Shown in pieces: positions 2,101-41,206 of a DNA stretch of 64,000 bases. Below the pieces are notes generated by a model. That model saw nothing but the letters and a program-made list of their open reading frames with translations, was not told where the DNA came from and did no database searches. This DNA comes from Narcine bancroftii. Lineage: Eukaryota. The translations under genes and the position numbers were made by a program. How positions within the stretch are numbered: position 1 is the first letter of the stretch; each line of letters starts with the position of its first letter. The DNA is taken from the NCBI RefSeq assembly GCF_036971445.1, contig NC_091469.1, positions 159,526,001 to 159,590,000 of the forward strand. The letters are read 5' to 3'.

Positions 2101-2469
2101 AAGGACGGTACGTTCCTTAAGAAACACGGATAACCACTGATGGGAGAGGATTGGAGGGGAATGGGCCTGATGCTGGCATGTGGGACTAAAAGCAGGAAGG
2201 CAGGTTGTTCAACATAGACAGGCTGTGTCTGCTGGCCTGGTTCCCTGCTGTCAGACTGTAGGAGTCTCGCATTGAGGGGAGAGGACGGGACAGTGGGGAG
2301 AATGCTTGTGACCAGGCAGCGGATAGTCGAGTGTTCAGCTCGGGCTGACTGCCTGGCCCTCTCCTGAGGACATCTGTGTGTCCCTGGAGAAGGAGCACTC
2401 AGTGCTCACGGACAGTTTGGAGCGTCTCCAGAAATGGTTGGCTCCCCTAAGGGTTCACCAGATATGAGC

Positions 2470-6510: not shown

Positions 6511-7429
6511 TTTTGAATCCCCACCCCCACCACCAACTGCCATGGAATGTCCCAAGTTCTGAACGATAAGGTTAGCAGAGAAGGTGAGAAAGAAAGGAGG
6601 CAGGGAGGTCAACAGAAAACACCTACTGTACCCCTGGATGGGAACCGACAGCAAGAGGACTTGAACGACACAGGTACCTACCATGTTGACCCATGTTGAA
6701 GTATGTATGACCCACGTAAAGTTCGACCTCCCCCCCACATTTGATCCGAAAATTTGGACCTAAAAAGTGGACTATTACACGAGTATATCCGGTTATTTTA
6801 TTTTATTTTTTCACTACCTGCTGAACTGTGTCAATGGATAGCACATAAAACAAAGCTTTTCACTGCATCTGGGAACATTGGAAACATTAATTCAATACAC
6901 TGCAGCCAAAAGCTTTCCCCATAACCAGGGAGGACCAAGGCAGGAAGCCTGAAGATGAACACCCAGTGGTACAGAAACAGCTTCTTCCCCTCCGCCATCA
7001 GATTTCTGAACAGACGATGATCCACAGACACAGCCTCACCTTCTCCTCTTGTCCACTAATTTATTTATTGTTTAAATTTCATTTGTAGCAATATGTGCAA
7101 CTAATGCTGCCCCAATACAACAAATTTCGTAACGTTCATGACATTATAGCACGACCAAAACAGGGCCACCCTCCTCACCCTGGTTTTCCCGTCAAAGCCT
7201 TTCCCCCACCATGGAAATTCCAAAGTCCCAACCGCAACGTTAACAGAGACGATACAGAAAAAGACCTACTGAAACCCTGGACGGAGATCGACAGCAGGAC
7301 CCCACAGAGACAGACCCACTGAAAGCTCATCACCAACGTTTCAGTGTCGACTTCTCTCAGCAAAATAATTCTTATTTTCCCACATTCAAAAATAGATGTG
7401 GTTGCAAATGTTTCTTCACTTCCTACCGT

Positions 7430-13575: not shown

Positions 13576-15918
13576 TCGAGTTTTGCATCCTCTCTCATTG
13601 ATTCATCTACATATTGATTTTGAAAACTTTCCTGTACACATTTGACAAACTCCCAAGCCACCCAGTCCTTTTACAGTATGGGAGTCCCAATCAATATGTG
13701 GAAAGTTAAAATCGCCTACTACCACAACTTTGTTTCTTACAATGGTCTGCCAGCTCCTGACCGATTTGTGCCTCCAATTCTCTCAAACTATTGGGTGCTC
13801 CATAATACAAGCCTATTAATGTGTTGACACCTTTCCCGTTTCATAGTTCCACCCAAAAGGCTTCTGTAGATGAGCCCTCTGGACTGTCTTGTCTAAACTC
13901 AGCTATGATAATTTCCCTGACTAGCAACACCACTCCTTCCCCTTTCATCCCTCCCCCTTTATCCGTCTCAAACAACGGAACTCCAGAACATGGAACTGCC
14001 AGCCCTGCAACCAAGTCTCACTCAAGCAATAACATCATAATCCCACGTGCCCATCCACTCCCTCAGCTCATCTACCTTACCGACAATACTCCTCACATTG
14101 AAATAGATGCATCAGAGATCATTTCCTCCCCACCAACTGTATCCAAAGCAGTTGATTGATTGGTGATGCGAACTGCCACAGGGGTTCTTCTACCCCTTCC
14201 CCTCCCCTTCCCAACTGTCACCCAAGTGCCTGGCTCCTGACTCTTCGGGGTTCCTGCCTCCCTCAAACTCCTCTCCATCACTGCCTCTGCCGACCCAACG
14301 ATTCAAAGTTCATCCAGCTGCAGCTCCAGTTCCCTAACTCCGTTTATCAGGAGCTGCAGCTGGATGCACCTCTTGCAGGTGTCATCATTGGCAACAAAGT
14401 GTTGTCCCTGACTTCCCACATCCTGCAGGCGGAACACTGGACTGGCCTAACAACTGCCTCTATTACCCAATTCCTCAGTTAATTAACTAGCTTAATGAAA
14501 GAAACTTTCCACTCTTCGCTTACTGGGAGCAAACTCCTCCTCAGCCACCACAGACAAGGCCACCATGTCCCTTTCTTCCCCTGCCCTCCCCCCCCCCACC
14601 ATCACTGGCTGCTTTAACAGCTCTCCCTCTTTTTCCATGTCACCATCTATTGCCAGCTGAGGTGGTGAATGTGGGCTCAGTTTTAACATTTAAGAAGTAT
14701 TTGGTCAGGTGCATGGATGGGAGGGGTATGGAGGGATATGACCTAGGTACAGGTTAGTGGGACAAGGCAAAAATGGTTCAGCAAAGAATAGAAGGGCCGA
14801 AGAGGCCTGTTTCTGTGCTGTAATGTTCCATGGTTCTAAGCAGGCCCTTCAACCCTTCTAGTCTGTTCCAAACTCTTATTCTGCCTAGTCCCAATGACCA
14901 TATTCCTGCTAACCTTCCCATCCATGTCACAGTCCAAATGTTTCGTGTATGTCAAGTTCACTTTGGCAGCTCGTTCCACTCTCCCACTACTCATTCTGTG
15001 AAAAGTTTCCTCCTGACGTTCTCCCTAAACTTCTCCCCTAACCCATGTCTTCCAGTTCTTGTCCCACCCCAACCTCTGTGGAAAAATCCGCAGATAGAAC
15101 CACGTGGGGATGAAGGGAACAGTTAAGTGATGGGGGAACCAGCTGGGGGTGAGAGGTGTGGGATGGATATGGGAATGGGAACCAGGTAAGGGGTGGGGGA
15201 GAGGGGGTTTGGATGGATAAATAGTGGGGCAACCAGATTAGAGAGGGGGGGAACAGATAAATAATGAGAGATCACAACCAGACATCACACATGTACAGAC
15301 AAATAATACACATGCGGGACAAGTACTTTATTGATATAAATATTATTTTATGAATATGAGAGTTTTGGATGGTCAGTGTGAGCAGTTCCTTTGGTCATTC
15401 AGCATTCTCACTGCCAGTGGGAAGAAGGTGTTCCCCAGCCTTGTGGTGCCGGCTCTGATCCTCCTGTATCTCTTCCCTGACGGGATCAGCTGAAAGATGC
15501 TGTGTGTAGGTTGGAAGGGGTCCTCAATAATTTTACACACCTTCTTCAGACAACGATCCTGGTAGATCACATCAATGGTGGGCAGAGAGACTCTAGAGAT
15601 CCTCTCTGTCACACTTCTGGTCCTGTCGATTCACCTCCAATCCATTTCTCCACAGCAACTGTACCACACAGTGATGCAGCCGGCCAGGAGGCTCTCAGTA
15701 GATCTCCTGTAGGAGGTTGACATCATGGTGGCAGGTAGCCTTACCCGCCTCAGCCTTCTCTTGAAGTGCAGGCACTATTGTGCCTACCTGACAATTGAGG
15801 AGATGTTGCGTGTCCATAATAGGTCATTACTTAAGTCCACGATAGGTCACTAGTTGAGTGGGATAGAGGCCAGTAGATGATTTTCAGGTGGTACCAGGTC
15901 GGGTAGAGGGAATGGAAC
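13576..15918 (+). repeat. Segmental duplication copy A (CR1 5' part + CR1 tails + G-rich tract + Rex fragment)
   Basis: Collinear, high-identity match to 33571-36524 across several unrelated TE junctions. Confidence 0.93.
15370..15830 (-). mobile_element. Rex1/Babar 3' fragment (duplicated at 35975-36440)
   Basis: ORFs 15373..15612 and 35979..36218 are nearly identical. Confidence 0.8.
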
Positions 15919-16646
15919 AGAACCATAAAAGATAAAACACTTACACTAAGAAACAAGCCCCTGGCTCTTCTAGTATCTTCCAAACTAATATTCTGTCTAC
16001 TCCCACTTACCTGCACCCAGACCATACCACTGCAGGCCCCTCCTATCCGTGTAATGTCCAAATCTTTCTTGTATCTCAAATTCAAGTTGGCAGCTCATTC
16101 CACACTCTCTCTACTCTCTGTTATGAAAACATTCCCCCTGATGATCACCCTAAGCTTCTCCCCTTTCACCCTTAACCCATGTCCTCCAGGTCTTGTCTCA
16201 CTCCAACCTCAGTGCAACAAGTCTGCTTTCATTTACTCTGTCTATCCCACTCAGAATTTTAAATACCTCTATCAAATCCCCCTCATTCTTCTGCACTCCA
16301 GGGAATAAAGTTCTAACCTGTTGAACTTTTCCCTGTAACTCAGTTCCTGAAGTTCTGGCAGCATCTGAGTAAACCAAGTTGGGGTGGATGTGAGGCAGAT
16401 AGAACTAAGTGGGGGAGAGGAGGTAAGTGATGGGGAAACCAGAAGAGGTGAGCAGGATGGTTTAGTGAAGTGATGGGGGAACCAGGTAAGGGAGTAAGGG
16501 ATGGGGAAGTGAGTGAGGAGAGAGAGATGACCAGATGGAACCTGGTGGGTGTCGGGTGGGTGCAGCAGTCTCGTTTGTCCTCCATCCTTTGAGGGGCAAG
16601 GACTCAACGTGCAATGCACAATCATTGTTCTCGCTCTCTTTCCCAG

Positions 16647-16736
16647 ACTCGTTGAACCCCACCTTCATTTATGTGCCGGTTCTCCTGGTTCTCCTGATCA
16701 CACTTGGCATCATCCTTCTCATCTTCCAGAAAAAAG
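16647..16736 (+). CDS. Transmembrane exon of a type I Ig-superfamily receptor: (D)SLNPTFIYVPVLLVLLITLGIILLIFQKK(G)
   Basis: Strong acceptor ttctcgctctctttcccAG, donor G|gtgagc, 90 nt, phase 1/1; ~21-aa hydrophobic helix followed by KK; non-TE sequence. Confidence 0.82.
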
Positions 16737-16877
16737 GTGAGCTCCTTTCTCGCTGACCAAACACATCTCTCACTGAAGGAGGCCGAACCAATCAGCTCAC
16801 TAACCCATCTCTATTTTACTGCCAGTGCTGGGTGCAGGGTGGTGAAGTGGGAAATGGGTTATCCAACAGAAGATGGA

Positions 16878-17110
16878 TGGCACAGTTGACATAGTGATTA
16901 GGGCAACGCTGTTACAGCATCAGAGACCCAGGTTCCAATCTGGCGCTGTCTGTCAGGAGTTTCCACGTTCTCTCCATGACATGCGAGAGGTGCTCCGGTT
17001 TCCTCCCAATTTTCAAAACATACAAAGATTCTAGATTAATTGGGGTATTTGTGTGTTATGGCCTCATGAACCAGAAGGGCCTGTTACTGTACTGCATGTC
17101 CAAATTTAAA
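16878..17110 (+). mobile_element. tRNA-derived V-SINE/HE1-like SINE
   Basis: Degenerate A/B boxes (GGTTCCAATC), core GGAGTTTCCACGTTCTC...GCTCCGGTTTCCTCCC, CR1-like tail. Confidence 0.7.
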
Positions 17111-17189
17111 TGAAGTTGGGTGATCTCTGCTGCCCCTCCCCAGTTGCCTGGTTTCCCAAGGTCACATTCAAACCTCTCTTCACTTTCCC

Positions 17190-17640
17190 CAGGAACCACT
17201 CCCTCCATGACTCCCAAGTCCACTCCTCCCTTCCCATTCCTTGGCACCTACCCATGTTCACACAGGAGATGCTCCACCTGCCCCCACACCTCCTGCCTCA
17301 GCACGATTTGGGGCCCCAAACAGTCCTTCCAAGTAAAGCAACACTTCTCTTGTGAATCTACAGGGGTTATCTACTGCATCTGGTACTCCCTTTGTGGTCT
17401 CCTCTACATCGGAGAGACAGGGCACAGTCTGGGACATGGCTTCACTGAGCACCTTCTCTCCATCTACAGCAAGGACCTCCCAGTGGCCAACCATTTTAAT
17501 TCCCTGCACCATTCCAACACTGACATAACTGTCCATGGCCTGACATATGGCCAAACGAGGCCACCTACAAATTGGAGGAACAACACCTAATATTTGATCT
17601 GGGCCCCCTCCAACCAGAGACAACCTCCAATTTCCAGAAA
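17190..17640 (+). mobile_element. Penelope-like element, GIY-YIG endonuclease fragment
   Basis: CSTCPH...GPKQSFQVKQHFSCESTGVIYCIW...LYIGETG...EHL...VANHFN. Confidence 0.88.
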
Positions 17641-18209
17641 CACCCTTCCCTAAGATTTTCTTTCCCTCTCCCTCTGCCTCCTTCCCCCCCCCACCTTCCC
17701 CCCCCACCACCACCTTCCCTCTCCATTCAGAGAGTTACCCTGCCCCCATCACTTCTCAGCTTCTTCCTCTTCTCCCCTCCCACCCGTCTCCACCTTTTAC
17801 CTGTTGGCCTGTGATCCCCCCCCTTCCCCTTCCTCCCTCCTTCCCCCTCCCCACCTTTTTATTCAGGCACCTACCTCCTTTTAGCTTGTGCCTTGACCTG
17901 GAGTTCCCACCCACCTGTGCTGTGGCGATTCCCACTGGTCCTCTCCTTGTCCACACAAACCATCAGCTTGCTCAAACCGGAGTTGGATCTCAGGGATTGG
18001 CGGACAACTGGGTCAAGACTGGGTCCAAAGTTAGCATGGATAGCATGGGCCAAATGGCCTCATACTTCACTGCTGTTGTGATAAGTCTCCATTCAATTCT
18101 GCTCACTGTTCATGTGGCTGAAAGGTGTGATTACAGCTTGGTGAGTGAGGTTATAAATTTCGTGGTGAATTTGTCATGTGAATCCAAGGTGTGGGACTCG
18201 ATTCATTGG

Positions 18210-18430
18210 AGAGGGTGTCAGTGATAAGGGAGAGTGTCCATGGGTAGGATGTCTGTGAGGTAGAGTGTCCATGGGGAGTGGGTAATAGCGGAGAGTGTCC
18301 GTGGGGAGAGTTGGTGATGGGGGAGAGTGTCTGGGGGGAGAGTTAGTGATGGGGAGAATGTCTGTGGGGAGAGGGAGTGACGGGGGAGAGTGTCCAAGAG
18401 GAGAGTCGATGATGGGATGAGTCCCCCTGA
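18210..18430 (+). repeat. G-rich minisatellite, ~31-32 bp unit, ~6-7 copies
   Basis: GAGAGTGTC-like core recurs at 18230, 18260, 18291, 18323, 18354 and 18386. Confidence 0.8.
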
Positions 18431-18439
18431 GCCATGACA

Positions 18440-19729
18440 TTGAGTTCTCCAGTATTACATCATCTGCTCAATATTTGGAAGAAGATTCATGTAGAAAGGA
18501 ATAAAACAAATTACCAATTACCAAAACTAATACTGACGCAAAATCAGCTAATCCCTTTTACAATAGATAACCTTTCCTTTAGAGAATGGGAGAAAAAATG
18601 GATCAAAAGAATAGAAAATTGTTTTTCAGGTAATAAATTACTATCCTTTGAACAAATGAGGGATAAATATAATATAACTCAAGATACAGTGCTGGCATAT
18701 TACCAACTGAGATCCTACTTGAAGGATAAATTAGGAAGTAGTCTGAGTTTACCAGAGGGAAGTAATTTTGAATATGTGATTACAGATACAATGATAATCA
18801 AAAAATTTATAACAAATATGTATATTAAACTGCAAGAAAAGGAGAATGAGGAAACAAATGATAAAACTAAACAAAAATGGGAACAAGATTTAAACAAAAA
18901 GATAAAGAAGGAAACATGGGAGAAGTTATGCTCTGGAACTATGAGAAATACAATAAACACGAGGTTACGTATGATACAATATAACTGGATACACAGGCTA
19001 TACATTACACCTCAAAAGTTAAATAAATGAGACCCAACAGTATCTGACAGATGTTTTCATTGTAAAAAAGAAATGGGAACAACAATTCATGCAATCTGGA
19101 CGTGTGAGAAAGTGAAAAAATTTTGGGAAGATCTAAACCAGATATTAAATAAAATTACAGAAAACAATATACCAAAAAACCCAGAGATCTTCCTCCTAAG
19201 TAACATAAAAAACAAAGAATTTGGAATTGATTTGGAGGATGCACAAAAAAGATTTGTTAAGATAGCTCTAGCCGTAGCAAAAAAATGTATCATGTCAACC
19301 TGGAAATTGGAAGATAATTTGAGAATACAACAATGGTATATAGAAATGAATAAATGTATTCCATTAGAAAAAATAACATATAGTTTAAGAAATAATATTG
19401 AAATATTTGAACAAATATGGGAGCCTTACATGAAACACAATAGAGAAAACCTACCGGGGACATTCACTACCTAAATTAACGAAAGGAGAAGGAAATGAAA
19501 AGAATTGACTCAGTGGAATTTCTGGTTTATTTTTATTGAATGACAACATTGTTTGACTGGTTTAATGTATCTTAGATTCTGTACTTTAAATGAATGGGGG
19601 TGGAGATAGGGAGGGTGGGATGGGAAGAAGGAGGGGGGGAGAAAATGACACTATATATTTGAAAAGGAAAATGTATGTATTTTGGTCAATGTGGTTTATG
19701 GTGTGAAAAATAAAAAATTTTAAAAAAAA
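18440..19729 (+). mobile_element. L1/Tx1 LINE 3' part (ORF2 C-terminus with CCHC knuckle, 3' UTR, poly-A)
   Basis: ORFs 18434..19030 and 19073..19474 are in one frame, split by a single TGA; CFHC...HAIWTC; AATAAA and A-run at ~19709-19729. Confidence 0.93.
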
Positions 19730-21860
19730 CCTTGACCCTCTCCTGTCTGCATCACCTCTGTTGTCGGTATAACTACTTGAGGCTCTCCAGCCTGTATCTC
19801 CCTGTTGTAGGTGTAACTACCCAGAGCCCCTCTGTCTATATATCCCCTCATGTTGGTATAACCGTCCAGAGGCCCTCCTGCCCATATCTCCCCTTTTGTC
19901 AGTATAACTGCCCTGAGCCCATTCAGTCTGTGTCTCCCCTGTTGTAGGTATAACCACCCTGAGCCGCTGCAGCCTGTATCTCCCCTGTTGGTGGTATAAC
20001 CACTCTGAACCCCTCCAGCCTCTAACTCCCCTGTTGTAGGTATACCCACTCTGAGACCCTCCTGTCTGTATCTCCCCTGTTGTAGGTATAACCGCCCTTA
20101 GACCTCCTACCTGTATCTCCCCTGTTGTCGGTATAACAGTCCTGATTCCCGCCTGCCTGTATCTCCCCTGTTGTTGGTATAACCACGCTGAGCTCCTCCA
20201 GCCTGTATCGCCCCTAGTGTAGTTATAATAGCCCTGAGCCCCTCAAACCTCTATTTCCCATGTTCTCGGTATAACTACCCTGAGACACTCCTGTCTGTAT
20301 CTCTCCTTTTGTAGGTATAACAACCCTGAGACCCTACAGGCTGCATCTTCCCTCATCTAGGTATAACCGCCCTCAGCCCCTCAAGCCTGTATCTCCCCTG
20401 TTGTAGGTATAACCACCATGAGCCCCTCAATCCTGTATCTCCCCTCTTGTCTGTGTTACCACCTTGAGACCCTCCTGTCTGTATCTCCCCTGTTGTAGGT
20501 ATAACCACCCTGAGGCCTTCCAGCCTGCATCTCCCCTGTTGTCGGTATACCCACCCTCAGACACTGCTGTCTGTATTTCCCCTGTTGTCGGTATAATGCC
20601 CTGAGCCACTTCAGCCTGTATCTCCCCTGTTGTAGGTATCACTACCCTGAGACCCTCCTGCCTGTATCTCAGCTGTTGTCGGTATAACTACCCTGAGACC
20701 CTCCTGTCTGCATCTGCCCTGTTGTAGGTATAACCTCCCAGATCATCTCCTGACTGAATCTCCCCTGTTATCCGTATAACAGCCCTGAGCCCCTCCAGCC
20801 TGTATTTCCCCTACTGTAGGTATAACCATCCTGAGCACCTCCAGCCTGTATCTCCCTGTTGTAGGTGTAACCAACCTGAGCCCCTCCAGCCTGTATCACC
20901 CCTGTTGTAGGTATATCCACCCTGAGCCCCTCCTGTCTGTATCTCCCCTGATGTAGGTATAACCACCCATAGGCCCTCCTGCCCGTATCTCCCCTGTTGT
21001 CGTTATAACTGCCCTGAACCCCTACAGCCTCTAACTCCCCTGTTGTTGGTATAACCACGCTGATCCCCTCCAGCTAGTATCTCCCCAGATGTCTGTATAA
21101 TCAACCTGAGCCCCTCCTGTTTGTATTTCCCCTGTTTAGGTATAACCGCCCTGAGACCCTGCTACCTGTATCTCCCCTGTTATTGTTATAACTGCCCTGA
21201 ACCCCTCCAGCCTCTAACTCCCCTGTTGTAGGTATAACCGCCCTGAGACCCTGCTACCTGTATGTCCCCTGTTCTTGGTATAACATCCCTGAGCCCCTCC
21301 AGCCTGTATCTCCCCTGGTGTATGTATAACCACCCTCAGCCCCTCAAGCCTGAATCTCCCTTGTTGTAGGTATAACCACTCTGAGACCCTCCAGCCTGCA
21401 GCTTCCTTGTCGATATCACCCCCCTGAGCTCCTCCAACCTGTATGTCCCCTGTTGCAGGTATAACCACCCTGATCCCCTCCAGCCTGTATCCCCCCTGTT
21501 GTTGGTATATCCACCCTGAGCCTCTCCTGTCAGTATCTTCCCTGTTGTACATATAACCACCCTGAACCCCTACAGCCTCTAACTCCCCTGTTGTTTGTAT
21601 AACCGCCCTCAGCCCCTGCAGCCTGTATCTCCCCTTTTGTCTGTATAACCGCCATGAGCCCCTCCAGCCTGTATCTCCCCTGTTTTAGGTATAACCGCCC
21701 TGAGCCCCTACAGCCTGTATCTCCTCAGTTGTAGGTATAACCATCCAGAGCCCCTCCAGCCTGTATCTCCCCTGTTTTAGGTATAACCGCCCTGAGCCCC
21801 TCCAGCCTCTTACTCCTCTGTTGTAGGTATAATCACCCTGAGCTCCTCCTGCCTCGAACA
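19728..21860 (-). repeat. 46-bp tandem satellite (~46 units), reverse orientation to 1033-2100
   Basis: Units CTGTATCTCCCCTGTTGTAGGTATAACCACCCTGAGCCCCTCCAGC are the reverse complement of the 1033-2100 consensus. Confidence 0.95.
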
Positions 21861-21998
21861 CCCCTGTTCTACTGTGTTTATGTCTCAATCAGACCCAGCA
21901 GCATCTGACGACGTGTGATGAACAGATTCGCATCCTGAAACTCCCGGTGTTTTCTCCAGTTCTTCCAATACTGATTCCCCTCCCCTCTCTCCCTGCAG

Positions 21999-22391
21999 AT
22001 TATTCCTTCCAAGGTTGGACAATGTCTGGTGCTGATGTGGTGTCAGCCGTGGAAGGGGCCTCTGCCATGTTGCTGTGTCGTTTCATCCACCCACCCACGG
22101 AGGAGACCCTCACTGGTACCATCAAGTGGTACAAGATTAAACCAGGAGTTAAATCAGTTCCTCAACTTGTGTTTAACTGTACAAATCCCGGCCTTGGATC
22201 CTCCCGATGTGATCGGGCAACACAGGAGGTCAGAGGGGATCGTTTCACGTTCGTGGGGAACCTGTGCCGAAGAGATGCCTCGGTCATGGTGAATCGTCTG
22301 AGTCGGGAGGATGAAGCTCAGTATTGGAGCCGCGTGGAGCTCAACATCGGTAACTTTCAAACTGCACTTTCAACGAACCTGACAGTGAGAG
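21999..22391 (+). CDS. Ig V-set exon, Siglec-15-like N-terminal domain (possibly a decaying copy)
   Basis: Acceptor tcccctctctccctgcAG, donor G|gtgagc, 393 nt, phase 1/1, open. W.M...VSA.EG.SA.L.C.F.HP, C-strand W, VFNC...RC extra Cys pair, RF.FVGN..RRDAS..V.RL..ED..QYWSRVE match the Siglec-15 V-domain pattern as I recall it. Confidence 0.88.
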
Positions 22392-22544
22392 GTGAGCAAA
22401 GAGCCCACCTGCTGCAGTGGGTCACAGTCTTCACTCCTCCCCCAACTAATCATATTGTTTTCATAACTTACAAGTGGAATAAAGCAGGATAATTCTTTAT
22501 GCTCATTCACAACCCAAGTCTGCACATGGTTGAGTTGAGACCCC

Positions 22545-22880
22545 CTACATTCGGAGCCCCAAACAGTCCTTCCAAACAAAGCAACTCTTCAGTTGTGAAT
22601 CTGCATGGGTCATCTACTGCATCTGGTCTCCCGCTGTGGTCTCTTCTACACTGTGGAGGCTGGATGCCGACCGTTGAGCACCTTCACTGCCAGAGCAAGG
22701 AGCTCCCAGGGGCCAATCATTTCAATTCTCCTCGCCCCCCTCCTGCACCAACGTTTCTGTCCCTGGCCTCATGCACTGCCAGACCAAAGCTACCCGCAAA
22801 TTGGAGGAACAATCCCTCATATCCCGTCTGGGCCTTCTCCAACCAGACGGCGTGAATGCCGATGTCTCCATTTCCGTTAA
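22545..22880 (+). mobile_element. Penelope-like GIY-YIG fragment
   Basis: Frameshifted homolog of 17190 copy (PKQSFQ, IYCI, ANHFNS, RKLEEQSLI.RLG.LQPDG.N). Confidence 0.8.
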
Positions 22881-23029
22881 TACCTCCCCATGCCCCCGTC
22901 TCTCTTTCTCTTTCCCCATCCTTCTGTCTTCTTTCCTTAGTGCCCCACCTCCCCCTTTCCTCTCCTTTCAGAAAGGCCCCCCCCACTCCTAACACTTCTC
23001 AGCATTTTTCCCTTAATTTAATTTTTAAT

Positions 23030-23260
23030 TAAATTTAGATGTACAGCATGGTAATTGGCTCTTTTGGCCCACGTGTCCGTGATGTCCAATTTACAACCAA
23101 TTAACATAAACTCCTGGAACATTTTTGAATGGTGGGAGGAAACAGAAGCCCCCGGGGAAATCCCACAAATATATGGGGAGAACGTAGAAACTTCAGGATT
23201 TGAACCCTGATCCCAATCGTTGGCGCTGTAACAGCGTTGTGGTAACTGTTATGCCAACCC
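23030..23260 (-). mobile_element. V-SINE/HE1-like SINE
   Basis: Same core as other SINE copies; B-box GGGTTCAAATCC on minus. Confidence 0.65.
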
Positions 23261-23519
23261 ATGGTGACCCACCCACCTATAACCTTTTGCCTGTGGGCCT
23301 GTGCCCCTCCTCCTCCCACTATTTTATCCAGGTGGTAACAGAGGGCTCAGGCCCGAAACATTGGCTTCCTTTTCCTTCCTGACGATGCTCAGTGATCTGC
23401 TGAGTTTTCCCGAGATGAGGATCCATTTTCCATCTCAGGTCACATCAGGGTTCCCTTCATGCACATTACTTGAGTGAGGAGCTTCATCGGCAGTTGGACA
23501 GGATCCGGTCTTTCAGAGA

Positions 23520-24370
23520 CCAGCTGCAGGTGATGGAGTCTTTCAGAAGGCCTGTTGTACGTTGGCCTTTATTAGTTGGGGATTGAGCTGAGGAGTTCTG
23601 AGATAATGTCACAGCTCGACAAATATCCTGTTAGACCACAACCGTGTTACAGGAAGGATGTGGAAGCTAAGGAGAGGGTGCAGAGGAGATAGGCCAAGGT
23701 GTTTCCTGGATTGGAAAACAAGACTTATTAGGCAAGTTTAGCAGAGCTGGGACTTTTCTCTTTGATGCGAAGAAGGACATGAGGAGACTTGACCGAGGTC
23801 GACAAGATTAGGAGAGACATAGATGGGGTGAACAGACAGCACCTGTTCCCCAGGGCCGGATCAGCAAACACCAGAGGACACGTGTACAAGGTGAAGGGAG
23901 GGACATTTAGGGGAGATATCAGGGGTAAGTTTGTTTTTAGACGGAGACTGGTGGGCACAGTTAACTGGAATTCACTGACTATGTGGAGTTCAGATGGCTG
24001 GCTCCTCCCTTGGCTCCACCTCACCCCCCCCCCCCAATATAAACCCTGGATTTCCTGCCTTACTTCAGATTCACCCAAGGACCATTGTATCCACTGGCCA
24101 TTGATTGTAAGCTATTAAAAGTGTGTCTGTGCTCCTCTCTCGTCTCTGAGTGCAATCAGTTATGTTACAGTGGGTGCCTAGAACACCTTGCCAGGGGTAG
24201 TGGTGGAGGCTGGTATAATAGGGACATTTAAAAGACTCTTAGACTCAGGGATGCAAGAAAAATTGAGGGTTGTGTGTGTGAGGTAGGGAAAGCTTATACT
24301 GTTGAGTAGGTTTATATGGTCAGCACAACATTGAGGGCTGAAGGGCCTGTGCTGTGCTGGAGTGTTTTAT
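23520..24370 (+). mobile_element. Degenerate CR1 3' portion containing a putative solo LTR
   Basis: RQHLFPRAGSANTRGHVYKVKGG...; CR1 resumes at 24170. Confidence 0.8.
23956..24169 (+). mobile_element. Putative 214-bp solo LTR with 5-bp TSD
   Basis: GTGGG at 23951-55 and 24170-74; internal TATA (AATATAAA) and ATTAAA; ends TTACA; 5' end is not TG. Confidence 0.6.
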
Positions 24371-24626
24371 GTTGTTCAATAAAATTGGAAGGGGAGCAGA
24401 GAAGATTGACCAGAATGTTGCCAGGATTGGAAGGGTTGAGTAAAAGGGGAGGTTGGATAAGGTGGGTCTTTATTCCCTGGAGCAGAGGAAGATGAGGGAC
24501 CTGGATGAAGTGAATGCTCACAGAATTGTCGCCAAGGTAGATGATCCCGAACCCAGAGGGCCTTAGTTTGAGGTAAGAAGGGAAAGACAGAAGAGGGACC
24601 TGATGGCCATCTTTTCACACAGAGAT

Positions 24627-24860
24627 GGGCTCCACGGTTGGCGTTGTGGTTACAACACCAGCAATTGGAACTGGGGTTCAAAACCTGCCCTGTCTGTAAG
24701 GAGTTTGCATGTCCTCTCCATGTCTGTGTGGGTTACCTCCGGGGGTTTTGGTTTCCTCCCACCCTTTAAAGTGTACTGAGGGTTGTAGGTTAATTGGGCA
24801 GCGCGGGCTTGTGGGCTGAAAGGGCCTGTATCTGTGCTGTATATCTCAATTTTAAAATAG
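24627..24860 (+). mobile_element. V-SINE/HE1-like SINE
   Basis: B-box GGGGTTCAAAACC, CTGTCTGTAAGGAGTTTGCATG core, GGTTTCCTCCCAC. Confidence 0.7.
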
Positions 24861-25162
24861 AGTTGTTTGTATCTGGAATGAGCTGCCAGAGGATCCTGTA
24901 GAAATGGGCACGATTGCAACATCCCAAAGAAATTTGGTGGGGTGAACGGATGAGAAGGTTTGAAAGATATGGGATAAATGCAGGAAAATGGGACTGGCCC
25001 AGAATTGCAGCTGGGTCAGTATGAAAGAGTCAGGCCAAAGGGCCTGTTTTGTGCTCTACAACCCCACGACTATTATTTTACAAGGTGGAAATTTTGGCAG
25101 GAATTGACTGTGAAGATGGGGGCAGGTCGACTGATACATTCTGGTGTCTGTCCTTCCATCAG

Positions 25163-25558
25163 CTCCTAACAGGAAGGGCTCAGTGGTGAGTGGGACTGAG
25201 GGAGGTTCAGTCACCTTACCCTGTGTGTTCCAACGGCCTCTGTCTGACCTCACCCTGCACACAGTCACTTGGATGATGAAGGATCCTTATTGGCACGTTC
25301 TCACATTCAGGCACAGATCTGATGGATCGTGGGTGGCAGAAAGTGATGCAACTCGATACGAGCTCGTCGGGGACCCTGAACATGGAAACACCTCAAACCG
25401 GATAAACCAGCTGAGTGTACGAAACAGTCACGGCTACCTGTGTCTGGTGGAGTCCGGAAAACCAGCTCATTTCCGTTACCCAATGGAATATTATGATCAT
25501 GCGAAGACCCCGTATATTTATCTGAGCCAGTGCGAGGCCCACTTGGTGGACTCTCCCG
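25163..25558 (+). CDS. Second Ig V-set exon (Siglec/PILR-like fold, long F-G loop)
   Basis: Acceptor tgtctgtccttccatcAG, donor G|gtaaga, 396 nt, phase 1/1, open; GTEGGSVTLPC, VTW, RYELVGDPEHGNTS.RINQL, YLC. Confidence 0.87.
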
Positions 25559-27110: not shown

Positions 27111-30100
27111 CATTTCCACAGGACATACCTGCAGGGGATGTAATGAGACACAAGCATTTAGGAAAAAAAATTGAAGAAATGGAGATGCAGCTAGATGATC
27201 TGAGGCTAATCAGAGAGAGCGAGGAATTTATTGATTCAACACTCAGGGAAGTGCTTACCCCTGGATTGGGGGGGGTCAGGAAAGTGGACTACTGTCAGGA
27301 GTGGGGAAAAAGTTGCTAGCTCTGTGGAGAGCACCCCAGTGGCTACAGATCTTAGCAACGAATATACAGTATTGGATGAAGTAGGGGAAGATAACCTGCC
27401 AGAGGTAGCGCCAAAGGAGACAGTGGTACGGAAGGAGAAGAAGGGGAACAAGGTGGTCATTGGGGACTCCATCGCTAGGGGAACGGACAGAAGATTCTGC
27501 GAACCTGACAAGTGTTCCCGTATGGTGTGTTGCCTCCCAGGAGCCAGGGTACGTGACGTCTCGGATAGGGTTCAGAGTATCCTGGGGGGGGAAGGAGACC
27601 GGCCAGAGGTCCTGATACACGTGGGCATAAATGACGTAGATAGATTGAAGGAGGAGATCCTGAAGAGAGACTACCGTGAGCTCGGAAGGAGGTTGAGAAG
27701 CAGGACCTCCAGGATTGTAATCTCGGGGCTGCTTCCTGTACTGTGCGTGGGTGGGGGCAAGAATAATAAAATCAAGAGGTTAAACGTGTGGCTGAGGGAA
27801 TGGTGCAGAGTGCAGGGATTCAGGTTCATTGACCATTGGGATCTCTTCTGGGGACCTATACAGGAGGGATGGTTTACACCTGAATGAGAAGGGGGCGAAT
27901 ATACTGGCAGTTAGGTTTAATAAAGCTGTCGGAGCTGATTTAAACTAATTTGGCAGGGGGAAGGGAACAGGACTGATAGGGAAGTAGATAGGAGAGAGAA
28001 TATAGGGGTGGTTCCGATAGACAGTGAAACAATAAGGAATAAGGGAGCTAAAAGTGATAGGAGAATAAGAACGAATGCACCAAGAACCAAGGTGGAGGGA
28101 GAAAGGAGGTATGGCATCAAGGTATTGTGTATGAATGCAAGGAGTGTAAGGAATAAAATGGATGAGCTTGAGGCGCAAATGACAATGGGAGGTTATGACA
28201 TTGTCGGAATAACGGAGACATGGCTGCGGGAAGGGCAGGATTGGGAAATAAATGTTCCAGGGTACACGTCCTTTAGAAAGGACAGAAAGTTAAGAAGAGG
28301 AGGTGGGGCAGCTCTGTTGGTAAGAAATGAGATTCAGGCATTTGAAAGGAAGGACATTGAAACAGGTGAGGTAGAGTCTGTTTGGATTGAATTAAGAAAT
28401 TGCAAGGGCAAGAGGAATATAATGGGGGTCATTTACAGGCCTCCGAAAAGTAGCTCAGATATCGGTAGTAGTATAAATCAGGAATTAAGAGTGGCATGTC
28501 AAAGTGGTAGCAATACGGTAGTTATGGGGGACTTCAACATGAAGGTGGACTGGGTTAATCAGACGGGGGCAGGAACACAAGAGAGCGAGTTTATAGAATG
28601 TCTACGAGATACTTTCTTGGAACAGCTAGTGGAGGAACCTACCAGGGGGAAGTCGATTCTGGACTGGGTGCTGTGCAGCGACGCAGACTTAATAAGTAAC
28701 CTTGATGTAGGGGAGCCATTAGGGAATAGTGACCATGGTATGGTTACTTTTAAGCTGCAACTAGAAAGGGAAATGGAAAGGAAGTCGGAAGCATCTGTAC
28801 TTCAGTTAAATAAAGGGAATTTTGCAGCTATGAGGGAAGAGCTATCCAAAATAAAATGGGAAGATACACTAGCTGGGAGGACAACTGGGGAAAAATGGCA
28901 GGTTTTTATGGACATTTTTCACAGGATTCAGGACAAATTTATTCCAAAGTGGAGGAAAGGCTCTAGGAGATGCAAATGGCAGCCCTGGCTAACTAAGGAA
29001 ATCAAGTGGATTATCAAGTCCAAAGGGAGTAATTATAAGATAGCGAAGCGGAGTGGGAAATTAGAGGATTGGGAAACCTTCAAAGAACATCAGAGGGTAA
29101 CTAAGAAAGCCATAAGAGATGGGAAAATGAAGTACGAGAGGAAATTAGCAGATAATATTGCGGAGGATAGCAAAAGCTTTTTTAAGTATGTGAAGAGGAA
29201 GAAATTGGTTCGGTCTAAAATTGGCCCTTTGAAAATGGGCAAGGGTGAAATTATTACCGGAAACAAGGAGATGGCAGAGGAATTTAACAAATTCTTTGCA
29301 ACTGTCTTCACCAAGGAGGATATAGGTTATAGTCAGTTAGGGGGTAGTGGTCATGCGGTACCAAGAGACTTGGGGAACTTTACTGGGGAGGTAGGGGATC
29401 TAATGGATATCCGGATCCAGAAGCAGGAGGTTATGAGTAAATTGTTGGGACTGAGGGCTGATAAATCCCCAGGGCCTGATGGGCTGCATCCTAGGGTGCT
29501 TAAAGAGGTGGCTATGGAAATTGTGGAGGCACTGGTCGACATTTTCCAAAGTTCCATAGATTCCGGAGAGGTCCCTGAGGATTGGAGAGTGGCTGATGTG
29601 GTGCCGCTTTTTAAGAAAGGAGGGAGGGAGAAAACGGGAAATTATAGACCGGTCAGCCTGACATCAGTGGTGGGGAAGATATTGGAGTCCATCATAAAAG
29701 GAGAAATAGCAGAACACTTAGTCAGTAATAATAGTATAAGGGCTAGTCAGCATGGATTCCTTAAGGGTAAGTCATGCTTGACTAACCTTCTGGAATTTTT
29801 TGAGGATGTGACAAAGAGGGTGGGCTCGGGAGAGCCAGTGGATGTGGTGTATTTGGACATGAGCAAATTTGCAGATGACACTAAACTGCGTGGCGGTGTG
29901 GGGTGTGAGGAGGATGTAAGGAAAATGCAGAGGGACTTGGACAGGCTGGAGGAGTGGGCGGCTAAATGGAAGATGAATTTCAATGTGAACAAATGTGAGG
30001 TTATTCATTTTGGGGGAAGTAATAGGAAAGCTGAGTATTATTTAAATGGAGACAAGCTAGGGAGTGGGGAAGTGCAAATGGATCTGGGTGTACTTGTTCA

Positions 30101-30805
30101 CCGGTCACTGAAGGCTAGCATGCAGGTTCAGAAAGCTGTGAAGAAGGCAAATGGAATGTTGGCTTTCATAAAGAGGGGATTGGAGTATAGGAACAGAGAC
30201 GCCCTTCTGCAGTTGTACAGGGCCCTGGTGAGACCCCACCTGGAGTATTGCGTCCAGTTCTGGTCTCCAAACTTGAGGAAGGACATACTAGCTATAGAGG
30301 GTGTGCAGCGCAGATTTACAAGGTTAGTTCCAGCGATGGCGGGGTTGACATATGCAGCAAGGCTAGAAAAACTGGACTTGTATCTGATGGAGTTTAGAAG
30401 GATGAGGGGGGACATGATTGAGGTATACAAAATCATCAGGGGGATAGACAAGGTGAAGTCGGATTACTTGTTCCCAGTGATGGGGGAGACGAGGACTAGA
30501 GGGCATAGTTTAAGAATACAGGGTAGGCCCTTTAGGACGGAGATGAGAAAGCATTTTTTTACCCAGAGAAGTGTGAATCTGTGGAATGCTCTGCCACAGA
30601 GGGTGGTAGAGGCGGATTCGCTGACTATGTTCAAAAGAGAGTTAGATAAGACTCTTGTGGGTAACGGAGTTAAGGGTTATGGGGATAAGGCTGGAAAGGG
30701 GTACTGATGGTAATGATCAGCCATGATCTAAAATGGCAGTGCTGGCCCAATGGGCCAAATGGCCTACTCCAGCTCCTATTGTCTATTGTATATTGTCTAT
30801 TGTCT
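27110..30805 (+). mobile_element. Near full-length young CR1 (ORF1 esterase + ORF2) with internal RT deletion
   Basis: ORF1 SGNH esterase (VIGDS, CLPGA, HVGIND, DHW); ORF2 899 aa; (CTATTGT)n tail at ~30775-30805. Confidence 0.95.
28008..30707 (+). CDS. CR1 ORF2: APE endonuclease + internally deleted reverse transcriptase
   Basis: MNARS, GITETW, YRPP, GDFN, LDWV, SDH; RT reads VYLD|MSKFADD, lacking the KAFD and QGS motifs. Confidence 0.9.
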   Translation: MVPIDSETIRNKGAKSDRRIRTNAPRTKVEGERRYGIKVLCMNARSVRNKMDELEAQMTMGGYDIVGITETWLREGQDWEINVPGYTSFRKDRKLRRGGGAALLVRNEIQAFERKDIETGEVESVWIELRNCKGKRNIMGVIYRPPKSSSDIGSSINQELRVACQSGSNTVVMGDFNMKVDWVNQTGAGTQESEFIECLRDTFLEQLVEEPTRGKSILDWVLCSDADLISNLDVGEPLGNSDHGMVTFKLQLEREMERKSEASVLQLNKGNFAAMREELSKIKWEDTLAGRTTGEKWQVFMDIFHRIQDKFIPKWRKGSRRCKWQPWLTKEIKWIIKSKGSNYKIAKRSGKLEDWETFKEHQRVTKKAIRDGKMKYERKLADNIAEDSKSFFKYVKRKKLVRSKIGPLKMGKGEIITGNKEMAEEFNKFFATVFTKEDIGYSQLGGSGHAVPRDLGNFTGEVGDLMDIRIQKQEVMSKLLGLRADKSPGPDGLHPRVLKEVAMEIVEALVDIFQSSIDSGEVPEDWRVADVVPLFKKGGREKTGNYRPVSLTSVVGKILESIIKGEIAEHLVSNNSIRASQHGFLKGKSCLTNLLEFFEDVTKRVGSGEPVDVVYLDMSKFADDTKLRGGVGCEEDVRKMQRDLDRLEEWAAKWKMNFNVNKCEVIHFGGSNRKAEYYLNGDKLGSGEVQMDLGVLVHRSLKASMQVQKAVKKANGMLAFIKRGLEYRNRDALLQLYRALVRPHLEYCVQFWSPNLRKDILAIEGVQRRFTRLVPAMAGLTYAARLEKLDLYLMEFRRMRGDMIEVYKIIRGIDKVKSDYLFPVMGETRTRGHSLRIQGRPFRTEMRKHFFTQRSVNLWNALPQRVVEADSLTMFKRELDKTLVGNGVKGYGDKAGKGY

Positions 30806-34730: not shown

Positions 34731-36524
34731 TCCCCATCTATTATCTGAATGGCTCACTGGCCCTAATCAATTAACTCAATTGCAGCCTCCTGACTCCAAC
34801 TCCAAAAATGTTGAGGGAAACTTCTTCACACAGAGAGCGATGGGAGTGTGGACCGAGCTGCCAGCTGAATGTGGGCTTAGTTTTAACATTTAAGAAGTAT
34901 TTGGACAGGTGCATGGATGGGAGGGGTATGGAGGGATATGACCTGGGTACAGGTTAGTGGGACTAGGCAAAAATGGTTCAGCAAAGAATAGAAGGGCCGA
35001 AGAGGCCTGTTTCTGTGCTGTAATGTTCCATGGTTCTAAGCAGGCCCTTCAACACTTCTAGTCTGTTCCAAACTCTTATTCTGCCTAGTCCCAGTGACCA
35101 TATTTCTGCTAACACTCCCATCCATGTCACAGTCCAAATGTTTTTTGCATGTCAAGTTCACTTTGGCAGCTCGTTCCACTCTCCCACTACTCACTCTGTG
35201 AAAAGTTTCCTCCTGATGTTCTCCCTAAACTTCTCCCCTAACCCACGTCTTCCAGTTCTTGTCTCACCCCAACCTCAGTGGAAAAATCCTGTCTACATTT
35301 ACTCTGTGTGTACTCCTCAAAATTTTAAATACCTCTATTAAATATCCCCTAATTCTTCTACGCTCCAAGGAACAAAGTCCTATCCTGTTTAACTTTTCCT
35401 TTTACCTCAGTTCCTCAAGTCCCGGCAACATTCCTGCAAACCAAGTGAGGGTGGATTCTGGACAGATAGAATCTGGGGAAGAAGGGAACAGTTAAGTGAT
35501 GGGGGAACCAGGAGGGGGAGAGAGGTGTGGGACAGATATGGGAATGGGAACTAGCTAAGGGGTGGGGGAGAGGGGGGTTTGGATGGATAAATAGTGGGGC
35601 AATGAGATTAGAGGGGGGGGAACATTTAAATAATGAGAGATCCAGGTTGGGGTGGGAGAGGAAACAGGTAAATGATAGAGGATCCAGTTGGGGAAGCCTG
35701 GGGTGTGGTACAGGTCAGTGTTCAGGGAACTGGGTAGGGGAGAGTGGGATGGGACAGGGGCTGGTAGGTGATAGGTGGAACCAGGTGGGAGAGAAAGGGT
35801 CAAGTTTATTGACATCTCTTTGTACATGTACAACCCAATGAAACAGTGTCTCCAGTCCTCGATTCAAACTCGTAGACTCACAACCAGACATCACACGTGT
35901 ACAGACAAATAATACACATGCGGGACAAGTACTTTATTGATATAAATATTATTTTATGAATATGAGAGTTTTGGATGGTCAGTGTGAGCAGTTCCTTTGG
36001 TCATTCAGCATTCTCACTGCCAGTGGGAAGAAGGTGTTCCCCAGCCTTGTGGTGCCGGCTCTGATACTCCTGTATCTCTTCCCCGACAGGATCAGCTGAA
36101 AGATGCTGTGTGTAGGTTGGAAGGGGTCCTCAATAATTTTACACACCCTCTTCAGACAACGATCCTGGTAGATCACATCAATGGTGGGCAGAGAGACTCT
36201 AGAGATCCTCTCTGTCACAATTCTGGTCCTGTCAATTCACCTCCAATCCATTTCTCCACAGCAACTGTACCACACAGCGATGCAGCCGGCCAGGAGACTC
36301 TCAGTCGATCTCCTGTAGGAGGTTGACATCATGGTGGCAGGTAGCCTTGCCCGCCTCAGCCTTCTCTTGAAGTGCAGGCACTATTGTGCCTACCTGACAA
36401 TTGAGGAGATGTTGCGTGTCCATAATAGGTCATTACTTAAGTCCACGATAGGTCACTAGTTGAGTGGTACAGAGGCCAGTAGATGATTTTCAGTTGGTAC
36501 CAGGTCGGGTAGAGGGAATGGAAC
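33571..36524 (+). repeat. Segmental duplication copy B
   Basis: Matches 13576-15918, plus three extra segments and a C-rich expansion at 34580-34690. Confidence 0.93.
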
Positions 36525-36744
36525 CAAATTTTGAAGCTTCTGCTCATTTAATAATAATCTGCCTGTTTATTTTCTCATCCAAAAATGACCAACCGTACAT
36601 TACTCAACATTGGATCTCATCGGCCATTTCTTTGCCCCTCTCCCAAACTGTCCAAGCCTCTCTGCAACCTTTTGGTTTCTTGAACACTTCCTACTCCACC
36701 ACCCATCTTGGTGTCATCTGCAAACTTGGCCACAAAACCATTCA

Positions 36745-38047: not shown

Positions 38048-39090
38048 CACATATGTCAAACTCTGGCCCGCGGGCCAATTATATTTGGCCCGCAAGATCA
38101 TATTAAATATATATTAGAGTTGGCCCGCTGGCCGCCGCGGCAGTATAGGGCATGCACACTGAAGGTGAAAATGAAGACGCCGGAGGTGTGGAGGGATCTC
38201 AGAGTCCCGAATCCCGGGGATCGGAGCGCTGCACTCAGCCCGCCCGGCTCCTGGACACACAGACGCGGCTGGAGTTGGGGACCATCCTCGCTGGATCTGC
38301 GCTTCAGCGGCGACGCCGGGCCGAACGTCTCGTTGGCGATGCCTTCCCCCTCGCTCAGTGCGCGGCGGACCCTGCCTCCCGCTCCTTTTGTTGGAGACGA
38401 GCCCGGTGCCGTGAGATCGCAGTTTAATCCCTCTCCAACCATGGGAGGGAGGTGGGAGCAACGCGCTCTTCTCAGCCAATTCCTCCACTGCCCCGGACGC
38501 CGGCGTTTCAACGGGGGGTTTGGGTGACTTCGTCAGGCGACCGACCTGTTGGTCCAAGACAAGGGGAGAGCGTACAAACTCCACACAGACAGCACCTGAA
38601 CTCGGGTGAACGTGGAGCTGCGACCCCACATTCCACATCAGGACTGTGTGTAAGATTGGGAGCAGTGAGACGGAAGCTTATTTTGTTCCTGTGATTTAAG
38701 CCTTTCTTGGGGTGGGGGGGTCCTTCTCTGACCACTTGCCTAACAATTAACCTAATCAGATGTGGAGTTACCACAATACAACAGTTCTCAACCTTTTTCT
38801 TTCCACTCGCGTCCCTGTGCCATTGGTGCTCTGTGATTAGTAAGGGATTGCTTAAGGTGGTCTGTGGGTGGAAAGAAAAAGTTTGAAGACCACTGCTTTA
38901 ATCATCCCTCATTGACTCGTCATGTGCACGGTTTCAGATCTCCAAAGGAAATGGGCCAATGACAATGACAATGAAAGAGTTTATCCAAAACTATTATTAA
39001 ACATTTATTTTAATAAAAGTTTAGCATTACATATGTTGAAAGAAGAGAAAACATGCAGATGTTGTTGAAAATTTTCAATAATATTTAGTT
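38048..39090 (+). mobile_element. Non-autonomous hAT (Charlie-like) DNA transposon with CpG-rich interior and nested inserts
   Basis: Left end CACATATGTCAAACTCTGGCCCGCGGGCCAA with GGCCCG subterminal repeats, preceded by GTGTAGAG (NTCTAGAN-like target). Right TIR not found. Confidence 0.6.
38782..38895. mobile_element. Short hAT-type MITE with ~25-bp TIRs
   Basis: CAGTTCTCAACCTTTTTCTTTCCAC ... GTGGAAAGAAAAAGTTTGAAGACCACTG. Confidence 0.65.
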
Positions 39091-39149
39091 TAGTTAGGAG
39101 TCAGAGGGACAAGAGAAAGCAAGAATTTGGAGCTCAGTATTTAGTATCG

Positions 39150-41171: not shown

Positions 41172-41206
41172 GTGCCATTTACATCAATGTGGGGATGAAC
41201 CAATGA
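41172..41206 (+). CDS. Candidate terminal cytoplasmic exon (G)AIYINVGMNQ*
   Basis: Good acceptor cttgcttcttgtgtttcAG in non-TE DNA; phase-1 reading gives a YxNV tyrosine motif then a stop. Phase is assumed. Confidence 0.35.

What the first reader, a model, noticed from the sequence alone, without database searches (positions are those of the whole stretch)
21999..25558. Tandem V-V architecture instead of the Siglec V-C2: possible lineage-specific receptor family
Known: Siglec-15 is V + C2 with a charged Lys in the TM for DAP12. Seen: the second domain is another V-set, the associated TM has no charged residue, and a candidate tail exon has YINV. Inference: an expanded, little-described Siglec-15-related family that signals through cytoplasmic tyrosines, not DAP12. 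This is my best candidate for an undescribed system in this window.
Basis: partly seen in the sequence, partly recalled or inferred. Interest (0 to 1): 0.7.

Follow-up and report, generated by a model that had tools for sequence, protein, structure and literature searches.

The report
Broken copy of paired Siglec-15-like receptors
These two exons are a likely dead, scrambled copy from a shark-and-ray gene family related to the sugar-sensing immune receptor Siglec-15, whose intact members have two V domains and come in likely activating (membrane lysine) and likely inhibitory (tyrosine tail) forms, with the arginine predicted to grip the body's own sialic acid kept by every inhibitory-type member examined but by only half of the activating ones.

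Summary
The two V-set exons are real (21999-22391, 25163-25558), but this copy is probably a pseudogene. It has no leader exon. Deletions removed its membrane exon and five tail exons. The uncharged TM exon lies 5 kb upstream of V1 as an orphan fragment. V1 has lost a core cysteine, and YINV is not a canonical ITIM. The family is real: 115 shark and ray records from 19 genera, none with a C2 domain. V1 carries Siglec-15's own disulfides and arginine. Both types occur in this genome's cluster, next to V-V-C2 genes. The arginine is kept in 27 of 27 uncharged-TM members but 16 of 32 Lys-TM members. Tandem-V Siglec-15-like proteins also occur in chimaera, gar, lungfish and salamanders, so the layout is not lineage-specific. 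Ten literature searches found no description. This scan has reported the family and the arginine asymmetry before on other DNA. Ligand binding and signalling are untested.

The parts
7271..7330 (-). Leader exon of the neighbouring complete paralog (record P0004), which runs leftwards out of the window; not the leader of the flagged copy
   Evidence: tblastn; the other P0004 exons match at 95-100% at C1:159.47-159.52 Mb, minus strand
13576..18416 (+). Orphan duplicated fragment of the intron-TM-intron region, ending before the first cytoplasmic exon
   Evidence: blastn to the intact paralog at 90-96% identity
16647..16736 (+). Uncharged TM exon, phase 1-1, upstream of V1; the only TM match in the 174 kb searched from the window start
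19729..21868 (.). 46-bp tandem array in the intron before V1, shared with the paralogs; similarity to the paralog starts here, without the leader
21999..22391 (+). V1 exon, Siglec-15-like: keeps the residues matching W44, C64, C95, C104 and R143; C142 is Ser
25163..25558 (+). V2 exon, V-set: no Arg, no C95-C104 pair, long variable F-G loop
26176..30803 (+). Insertion absent from the paralog, holding a 922-aa endonuclease/reverse-transcriptase-like frame (27939-30707); LINE-like by my reading of the translation
36524..36744 (+). Deletion junction: about 13 kb of the paralog (TM and four tail exons) missing
39090..39096 (+). Second deletion junction: about 1.9 kb with the fifth tail exon missing
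41172..41206 (+). Last coding exon with YINV and stop; in frame with V2 if spliced directly

Best explanation
The flagged V-V exons are a likely non-functional, rearranged copy from a cluster of Siglec-15-related genes whose intact members likely work as paired immune receptors. Shown: family members share a V1-V2 ectodomain without C2 and end either in a Lys-containing TM like that of Siglec-15 with a short tail, or in an uncharged TM with a tyrosine tail. The two types often group by genus, not by type. The Siglec arginine is kept in all uncharged-TM members and lost repeatedly in Lys-TM members. Inferred: inhibitory members bind self sialic acid through V1 and recruit SHP-type phosphatases through the terminal ITIM. 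Activating members couple to DAP12/DAP10 and often shed sialic-acid binding, so they would not fire on self and could catch microbes that exploit the inhibitory twin. V2 likely acts as spacer and, through its variable F-G loop, possibly as a second binding surface. The V-V genes likely arose from V-V-C2-TM genes like those at the left end of the cluster by loss of C2. Birth-and-death duplication leaves debris such as this copy.
For: Broken copy: no plus-strand leader between C1:159,366,167 and 159,652,836 among 9 matches. TM and five tail exons deleted. C142 is Ser. V2 differs from two paralogs by 11 replacement and 4 silent changes, a ratio compatible with neutrality. Siglec-15 kinship: family profile hits 7zoz at E 2.1e-24 against 1.2e-10 for CD33. 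The V1 fold ranks 7zoz first (Z 15.0, rmsd 3.2, 121 aligned). Of 94 V1 domains, 87 have C64, 91 C95, 90 C104, 91 C142 and 69 R143; the paper calls the C95-C104 feature unique to Siglec-15 (PMC10264397 passages). The TM Lys motif lines up with that of mouse, turtle, lungfish and gar Siglec-15. Pairing: 43 Lys-TM, 35 uncharged with ITIM, 3 uncharged with other tyrosines, 7 uncharged without, 27 without TM, of 115 records; both types in 12 of 19 genera. Lys and ITIM members are sisters in Heterodontus, bamboo sharks, Scyliorhinus and Leucoraja for both V1 and V2 (bootstrap 100). Arg kept in 27 of 27 against 16 of 32 after collapsing near-duplicates, lost in about 6-8 places of a quick tree. Contigs of 3 of 3 same-species runs stop at the V1 and V2 exon borders and carry paralog letters.
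Against: The window exons keep open frames and splice sites, and V2 could splice in frame to the last exon, so decay is not proven. Some of the 11 V2 changes may be ancestral states, not new damage. The group joining V1 with bony-vertebrate Siglec-15 has only 88/88 support on 129 columns, and TIM-like long branches join the V2 side. In the fold search several V domains lie within 1 Z unit of 7zoz. Siglec-15's Y87 is kept in only 7 of 94 V1 domains, and the zebrafish ortholog bound tested glycans poorly (PMC7226832 passage). Within-genus pairing holds in 8 of 11 groups for V2 but 4 of 9 for V1, and not in this species (53% and 65%). The tree pairs were rows I chose. The Fisher value (1e-5) ignores relatedness, and records are gene models and isoforms, not gene counts. 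Two local uncharged-TM paralogs end in YINV without a canonical ITIM, and three lack the B-strand Cys in V1. The cluster is on C1, whereas ATP5F1A, an ARK2N-like gene and the urea transporters are on C8.
Confidence: 0.7

Rival explanations
1. The window copy is alive and makes a TM-less V1-V2 protein, a soluble decoy, by splicing V2 to the last exon.
For: Open frames, intact AG/GT sites, all exons phase 1-1, Arg kept. 27 of 115 records have no TM.
Against: No own leader. Unpaired core Cys in V1. V2 changes include the Asp before the F strand. TM-less records may be incomplete gene models.
Confidence: 0.1
2. One reading: a tyrosine-signalling family without DAP12 coupling.
For: All complete close paralogs at C1:159.3-159.97 Mb have uncharged TMs and tyrosine tails. 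The local Lys-TM genes are divergent, lack the Arg, and one has a stop in V1.
Against: Lys-TM V-V members exist in 14 of 19 genera and in this genome.
Confidence: 0.05
3. The family is paired but binds proteins or non-sialic glycans, like CD300, pIgR or skate MDIR receptors; the Siglec-15 likeness is ancestry only.
For: pIgR is the second-best PDB hit of the family profile (E 2e-20) and of V2. V2 lacks Arg in 105 of 105. Y87 is not kept. One V1 paralog pair shows 28 replacement to 3 silent changes (p 0.039, best of 10 pairs, uncorrected).
Against: Arg is kept in 27 of 27 uncharged-TM members across sharks and rays, with W44 and an aromatic at 154. The pIgR score is summed over several domains.
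Confidence: 0.12
4. The scrambled order in the window is an assembly artefact.
For: The region is rich in repeats and recent duplications (up to 99% identity). No DNA reads were laid.
Against: Each fragment is 92-97% identical to its nearest paralog, not 100%, and has its own junctions and insertions.
Confidence: 0.03

Closest known systems
Siglec-15 (human PDB 7zoz; PMC10264397, PMC7226832)
   Same: V domain with C64-C142 and C95-C104 pairs, W44 and R143; Lys TM motif in the activating-type members; best sequence and fold match of V1.
   Different: Second domain is V, not C2; multigene cluster; uncharged-TM members with tyrosine tails; Arg often lost in Lys-TM members; not beside ATP5F1A in this genome.
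Paired CD33-related Siglecs 5/14 and 11/16 (PMC6288428 passages)
   Same: Inhibitory and activating forms with similar ectodomains that group by lineage; Arg mutations and null copies.
   Different: Built on Siglec-15-type V domains, no C2 domains; CD33 scores far lower.
Primate Siglec-12 (two V-set domains; PMC6288428 passage)
   Same: Tandem V-V at the N terminus, so V-V as such is not new among Siglecs.
   Different: Siglec-12 also has C2 domains and is CD33-related; here V2 is a distinct, Arg-less domain.
PILR alpha/beta
   Same: All-V paired receptors with a Siglec-like fold (recalled).
   Different: Sharks and rays have a separate PILR-like family (P0268 hits PILR at E 1e-17; a V exon on C5 groups with it).
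Teleost siglec15l and tandem-V Siglec-15-like proteins of lungfish, gar, salamanders and chimaera (database records)
   Same: Siglec-15-type V domains, repeated V exons, Lys-TM or tyrosine-tail ends; the newt tail motifs closely match the shark ones.
   Different: Most keep C2; their repeated V domains are copies of one another within a lineage, whereas V1 and V2 here are two old, distinct types.
MDIR of clearnose skate (seen only in passages of PMC3031540)
   Same: Multigene activating/inhibitory Ig receptor family in cartilaginous fish.
   Different: Described as CD300/TREM/pIgR-like; no MDIR sequence was at hand to compare.

Membership tests
Siglec-15 | V domain with C64-C142 and C95-C104 disulfide cysteines | tested here: met
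   87, 91, 90 and 91 of 94 V1 domains have C64, C95, C104, C142; the window V1 lacks C142
Siglec-15 | Essential Arg (R143) on strand F | tested here: met
   69 of 94 V1 domains, window V1 included; 0 of 105 V2 domains
Siglec-15 | V followed by one C2 domain | tested here: not met
   0 of 115 records hit a Siglec-15 C2 profile; C2 exons occur only in three neighbouring V-V-C2 loci
Siglec-15 | Lys in the TM | tested here: met
   43 of 115 records and three local V-V loci; not met by the window's TM exon or its closest paralogs
Siglec-15 | Position beside SLC14A/EPG5/ATP5F1A (mammalian order recalled) | tested here: inconclusive
   ATP5F1A, ARK2N-like and urea transporter genes map to C8, the cluster to C1. 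No Siglec-15 V or C2 hit in 200 kb beside ATP5F1A, but EPG5 was not located
Siglec-15 | Sialic-acid binding and DAP12/DAP10 coupling | not testable with these tools
   needs binding and co-precipitation assays
CD33-related Siglecs / Siglec-12 | V domain closer to CD33 than to Siglec-15, followed by C2 domains | tested here: not met
   profile E 2.1e-24 for Siglec-15 against 1.2e-10 for CD33; no C2; no mammalian CD33-related row was in the tree
PILR | V domain groups with PILR-like sequences | tested here: not met
   PILR-like rows form their own clade (99/93) apart from V1 and V2; PILR is not among the best 60 of 122 PDB hits of the family profile
MDIR / CD300-pIgR-like receptors | Sequence membership of the MDIR domain types | not tested
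   no MDIR sequence retrieved; pIgR similarity is real but second to Siglec-15
Paired receptors | Similar ectodomains with opposite TM/tail types, clustered | tested here: met
   both types in 12 of 19 genera, up to 94-97% identical domains; both types in the C1 cluster, though divergent in this species
Paired receptors | Opposite signalling in the same cells | not testable with these tools
   no cell-type expression or signalling data

The most novel reading that the evidence does not exclude
Siglec-15, a single conserved activating gene in tetrapods, is the survivor of an ancestral jawed-vertebrate paired-receptor cluster. Sharks and rays keep a C2-less branch in which inhibitory members read self sialic acid with V1, while activating members repeatedly drop the arginine and recognise microbes with other surfaces, including a hypervariable, CDR3-like F-G loop on V2.
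Probability: 0.3. Interest if true: 0.72.

Novelty: new variant of a known kind. Interest (0 to 1): 0.5.

Why it matters
Paired activating and inhibitory Siglecs are mostly known from the CD33-related cluster of mammals, and Siglec-15 is treated as a lone conserved gene. A paired system built on Siglec-15 in cartilaginous fish would show that this design arose on a second Siglec scaffold. It gives a testable rule (inhibitory members keep the self-sugar arginine, activating ones lose it) and a likely origin for a cancer-immunotherapy target. The flagged copy itself matters only as a sign of rapid gene turnover.

Tried and rejected
Synteny: Pfam scans of 148 selected non-repeat frames from 400 kb flanking the cluster and 75 from 200 kb on C8 gave mostly retroelement domains. 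One laminin-G exon lies at about C1:160.045 Mb; its likeness to pikachurin (EGFLAM) is recalled, not tested. A weak integrin hit was an integrase fragment. A DAP10 family search gave one weak match with stops (E 0.3): no verdict on adaptors. Foldseek on the two-domain model returned generic V-V proteins (JAML, scFv). Expression: no RNA holder was listed for the window stretch. The listed contigs on the exons carried paralog letters; this is no evidence against expression of the copy, the runs are only guessed to be RNA, and tissue is unknown. Expression of the Lys-TM genes remains untested. A TM-V1-V2 splice product is in frame but has no start codon in the TM exon and basic residues on the wrong side, so I rejected it. 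Literature: searches found no paper on this family. The original Siglec-15 paper (PMID 17483134) is not held. Subscription papers on Siglec evolution and the MDIR paper were not seen, and no supplements were read; gene-family tables of shark genome papers could list these genes. No complex-prediction job was sent.

Full report
Observation. Both are Pfam V-set domains with human Siglec-15 as best PDB hit. A model of window V2 from a 49-row alignment has nine strands (pLDDT 85). Its top fold matches are V domains: nectin-1, Siglec-15 and NTB-A, tied within 1 Z unit. So V-V is correct. Exons of the neighbouring gene match records labelled Narcine bancroftii at 99-100%, so the window is from this electric ray or a very close species.

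The flagged copy is broken. Mapping a complete paralog (P0004) on the window gives, left to right: a leader on the minus strand (7330-7271, belonging to the neighbour), a TM exon at 16647-16736, V1, V2, and the last exon at 41172-41206. Against the intact gene at C1:159.70-159.76 Mb, the copy begins in the 46-bp array before V1 and follows the paralog to 36524. It then skips about 13 kb with the TM and four tail exons, and at 39090 skips the fifth. The TM exon sits in a separate fragment (13576-18416) and is the only TM match in 174 kb from the window start. A genome search with the leader gave 9 places, none on the plus strand between 159,366,167 and 159,652,836 (only the best candidates are scored). 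V1 has Ser for the F-strand Cys. V2 differs from two paralogs at 11 replacement and 4 silent sites, not distinguishable from neutral (p 0.76), although some of these may be ancestral states. Frames and splice sites are intact, so a TM-less product is not excluded.

The local cluster. Searches with V1, V2 and mouse Siglec-15 and mapping on fetched DNA give a cluster at C1:157.34-159.97 Mb. There are three V-V-C2-TM loci: one with a Lys TM, two uncharged, of which one is frameshifted. There are three V-V loci with a Lys TM, one with a stop in V1. There are six V-V loci of the uncharged type, among them a four-V gene with a frameshift and the window copy. Orphan leader pieces lie at 159.65, 159.85, 242.15 and 242.47 Mb. 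I read only parts of the cluster; most of 157.58-159.31 Mb was not fetched. In the V-V-C2 genes C2 and TM lie in one open frame.

The family. Two protein searches gave 115 shark and ray records from 19 genera plus 5 mammalian Siglec-15 records (120 of 127 hits were listed). None of the 115 hits a Siglec-15 C2 profile. By TM: 43 have Lys, 35 are uncharged with an ITIM-type motif, 3 uncharged with other tyrosines, 7 uncharged without, 27 have no TM; 12 genera have both types. These are gene models and isoforms, not gene counts. The Lys TM lines up with that of Siglec-15 from mouse, turtle, lungfish and gar. PMC7226832 (passages) states that this Lys couples Siglec-15 to DAP10/12 and gives the ITIM signature used here. 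Contigs from 3 of 3 same-species runs (guessed RNA, one study) stop at the V1 and V2 exon borders. They carry 32-33 and 18 differences plus a 3-base gap found in two paralogs, which fits spliced transcripts of paralogs.

Kinship. The family profile hits Siglec-15 at E 2.1e-24, pIgR at 2e-20 (summed over domains) and CD33 at 1.2e-10. The two-domain model of P0006 (pLDDT 87) ranks 7zoz first (Z 15.0). PMC10264397 (passages) names C64-C142, C95-C104, R143, W44, Y87 and Y154. Of 94 V1 domains, 87, 91, 90 and 91 have the four cysteines, 69 have Arg, 78 have W44 (16 are gaps), 69 have Phe at 154, and 7 have Y87. Of 105 V2 domains none has Arg. In a 113-row tree (129 columns) V1 is a clade (100/99) inside a weaker group (88/88) with Siglec-15 and siglec15l of bony vertebrates, apart from PILR-like (99/93) and CD22/sialoadhesin-like rows (100/98). 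V2 (96/96) falls on the side of the second V of the V-V-C2 genes, with TIM-like long branches attached. No mammalian CD33-related, NKp30 or MDIR row was in the tree. A sawfish protein of the PILR-like clade hits PILR at E 1e-17, so PILR has its own shark family.

Not lineage-specific in layout. A profile search of 1.84 billion representatives and a search with lungfish Siglec-15 returned V-V-C2 proteins of chimaera, two- and three-V Siglec-15 of lungfish, a four-V Lys-TM protein of gar, and V-V proteins of newt and axolotl with tail motifs like the shark ones. Primate Siglec-12 also has two V domains (PMC6288428 passage). What appears specific to elasmobranchs in these data is the V1-V2 pair without C2.

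Mechanism. Lys and ITIM members are sisters within Heterodontus, bamboo sharks, Scyliorhinus and Leucoraja for both domains (rows chosen by me). Over all records the best cross-type pair in a genus beats the best same-type match elsewhere in 8 of 11 groups for V2 and 4 of 9 for V1. This fits exchange of ectodomain exons, but not in this species. The Arg is kept in 32 of 32 uncharged-TM and 16 of 32 Lys-TM first domains; after collapsing near-duplicates, 27 of 27 and 16 of 32 (15 substitutions, 1 gap). The losses fall in about 6-8 places on a quick tree. The V2 F-G loop varies in length and sequence between paralogs and is longest in rays. I infer inhibitory receptors for self sialic acid paired with DAP12-type activating receptors that tend to lose this binding. 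Binding, adaptor use and cell type are untested.

Novelty. Ten searches found no description; I saw search listings, and passages of PMC7226832, PMC6288428, PMC10264397, PMC3031540 and PMC8455134. The databases label these proteins 'uncharacterized' or by loose similarity. Earlier notes of this scan report the same family and the same Arg asymmetry on other genomes. I had the pairing and the Arg counts before reading the respective notes, and they are not independent support. Verdict: an ordinary pseudogene fragment that belongs to a real, apparently undescribed variant of a known kind of system. Interest 0.5.

Noticed in passing
L001:9165-9557, L004:1566-1958, L007:1351-1743 (V1 of P0004, P0005, P0007 genes): The complete close paralogs have Phe for the B-strand Cys; P0004 has lost both core cysteines of V1, and the window copy the F-strand one. 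The core disulfide is being lost in this species' inhibitory-type genes.
   Followed up: partly
G000:C1:157,540,378-157,565,986, minus (L038, L057): V-V-C2-TM gene with Lys, C2 and TM in one frame: the closest local match to Siglec-15 in layout, but neither V has the Arg.
   Followed up: partly
L060:4591-4986, minus (G000:C5:196.28 Mb): A V exon with Arg that groups with PILR-like proteins of sawfish and horn shark.
   Followed up: partly
L110:6436-6951, plus (G000:C1:160.045 Mb): Laminin-G exon just beyond the cluster; likeness to pikachurin (EGFLAM) is recalled only. A possible synteny anchor.
   Followed up: partly
G000:C1:242.15 and 242.47 Mb; 159.65 and 159.85 Mb: Leader exon, in three of the four places seen followed by a 3' piece of V1; two copies lie 82 Mb from the cluster.
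   Followed up: partly
G000:C1:159,482,769-159,488,623, minus: One tyrosine-bearing tail exon is triplicated in the P0004 gene, so the number of tyrosine motifs varies between paralogs.
   Followed up: no
proteins P0141, P0156, P0188, P0189 (lampreys), P0171 (hagfish): Jawless-fish proteins with tandem V domains score well against the family profile and fall near the PILR and Siglec rows.
   Followed up: no
window 1039-2101, 19729-21868 and 39653-40345: 46-bp and 23-bp tandem arrays in introns, shared with the paralogs; two breakpoints of the copy lie next to them.
   Followed up: no
window 56167-58779, minus; 3490-5004, minus; 53487-54677, plus: Long reverse-transcriptase-like frames of LINE-type elements.
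   Followed up: no
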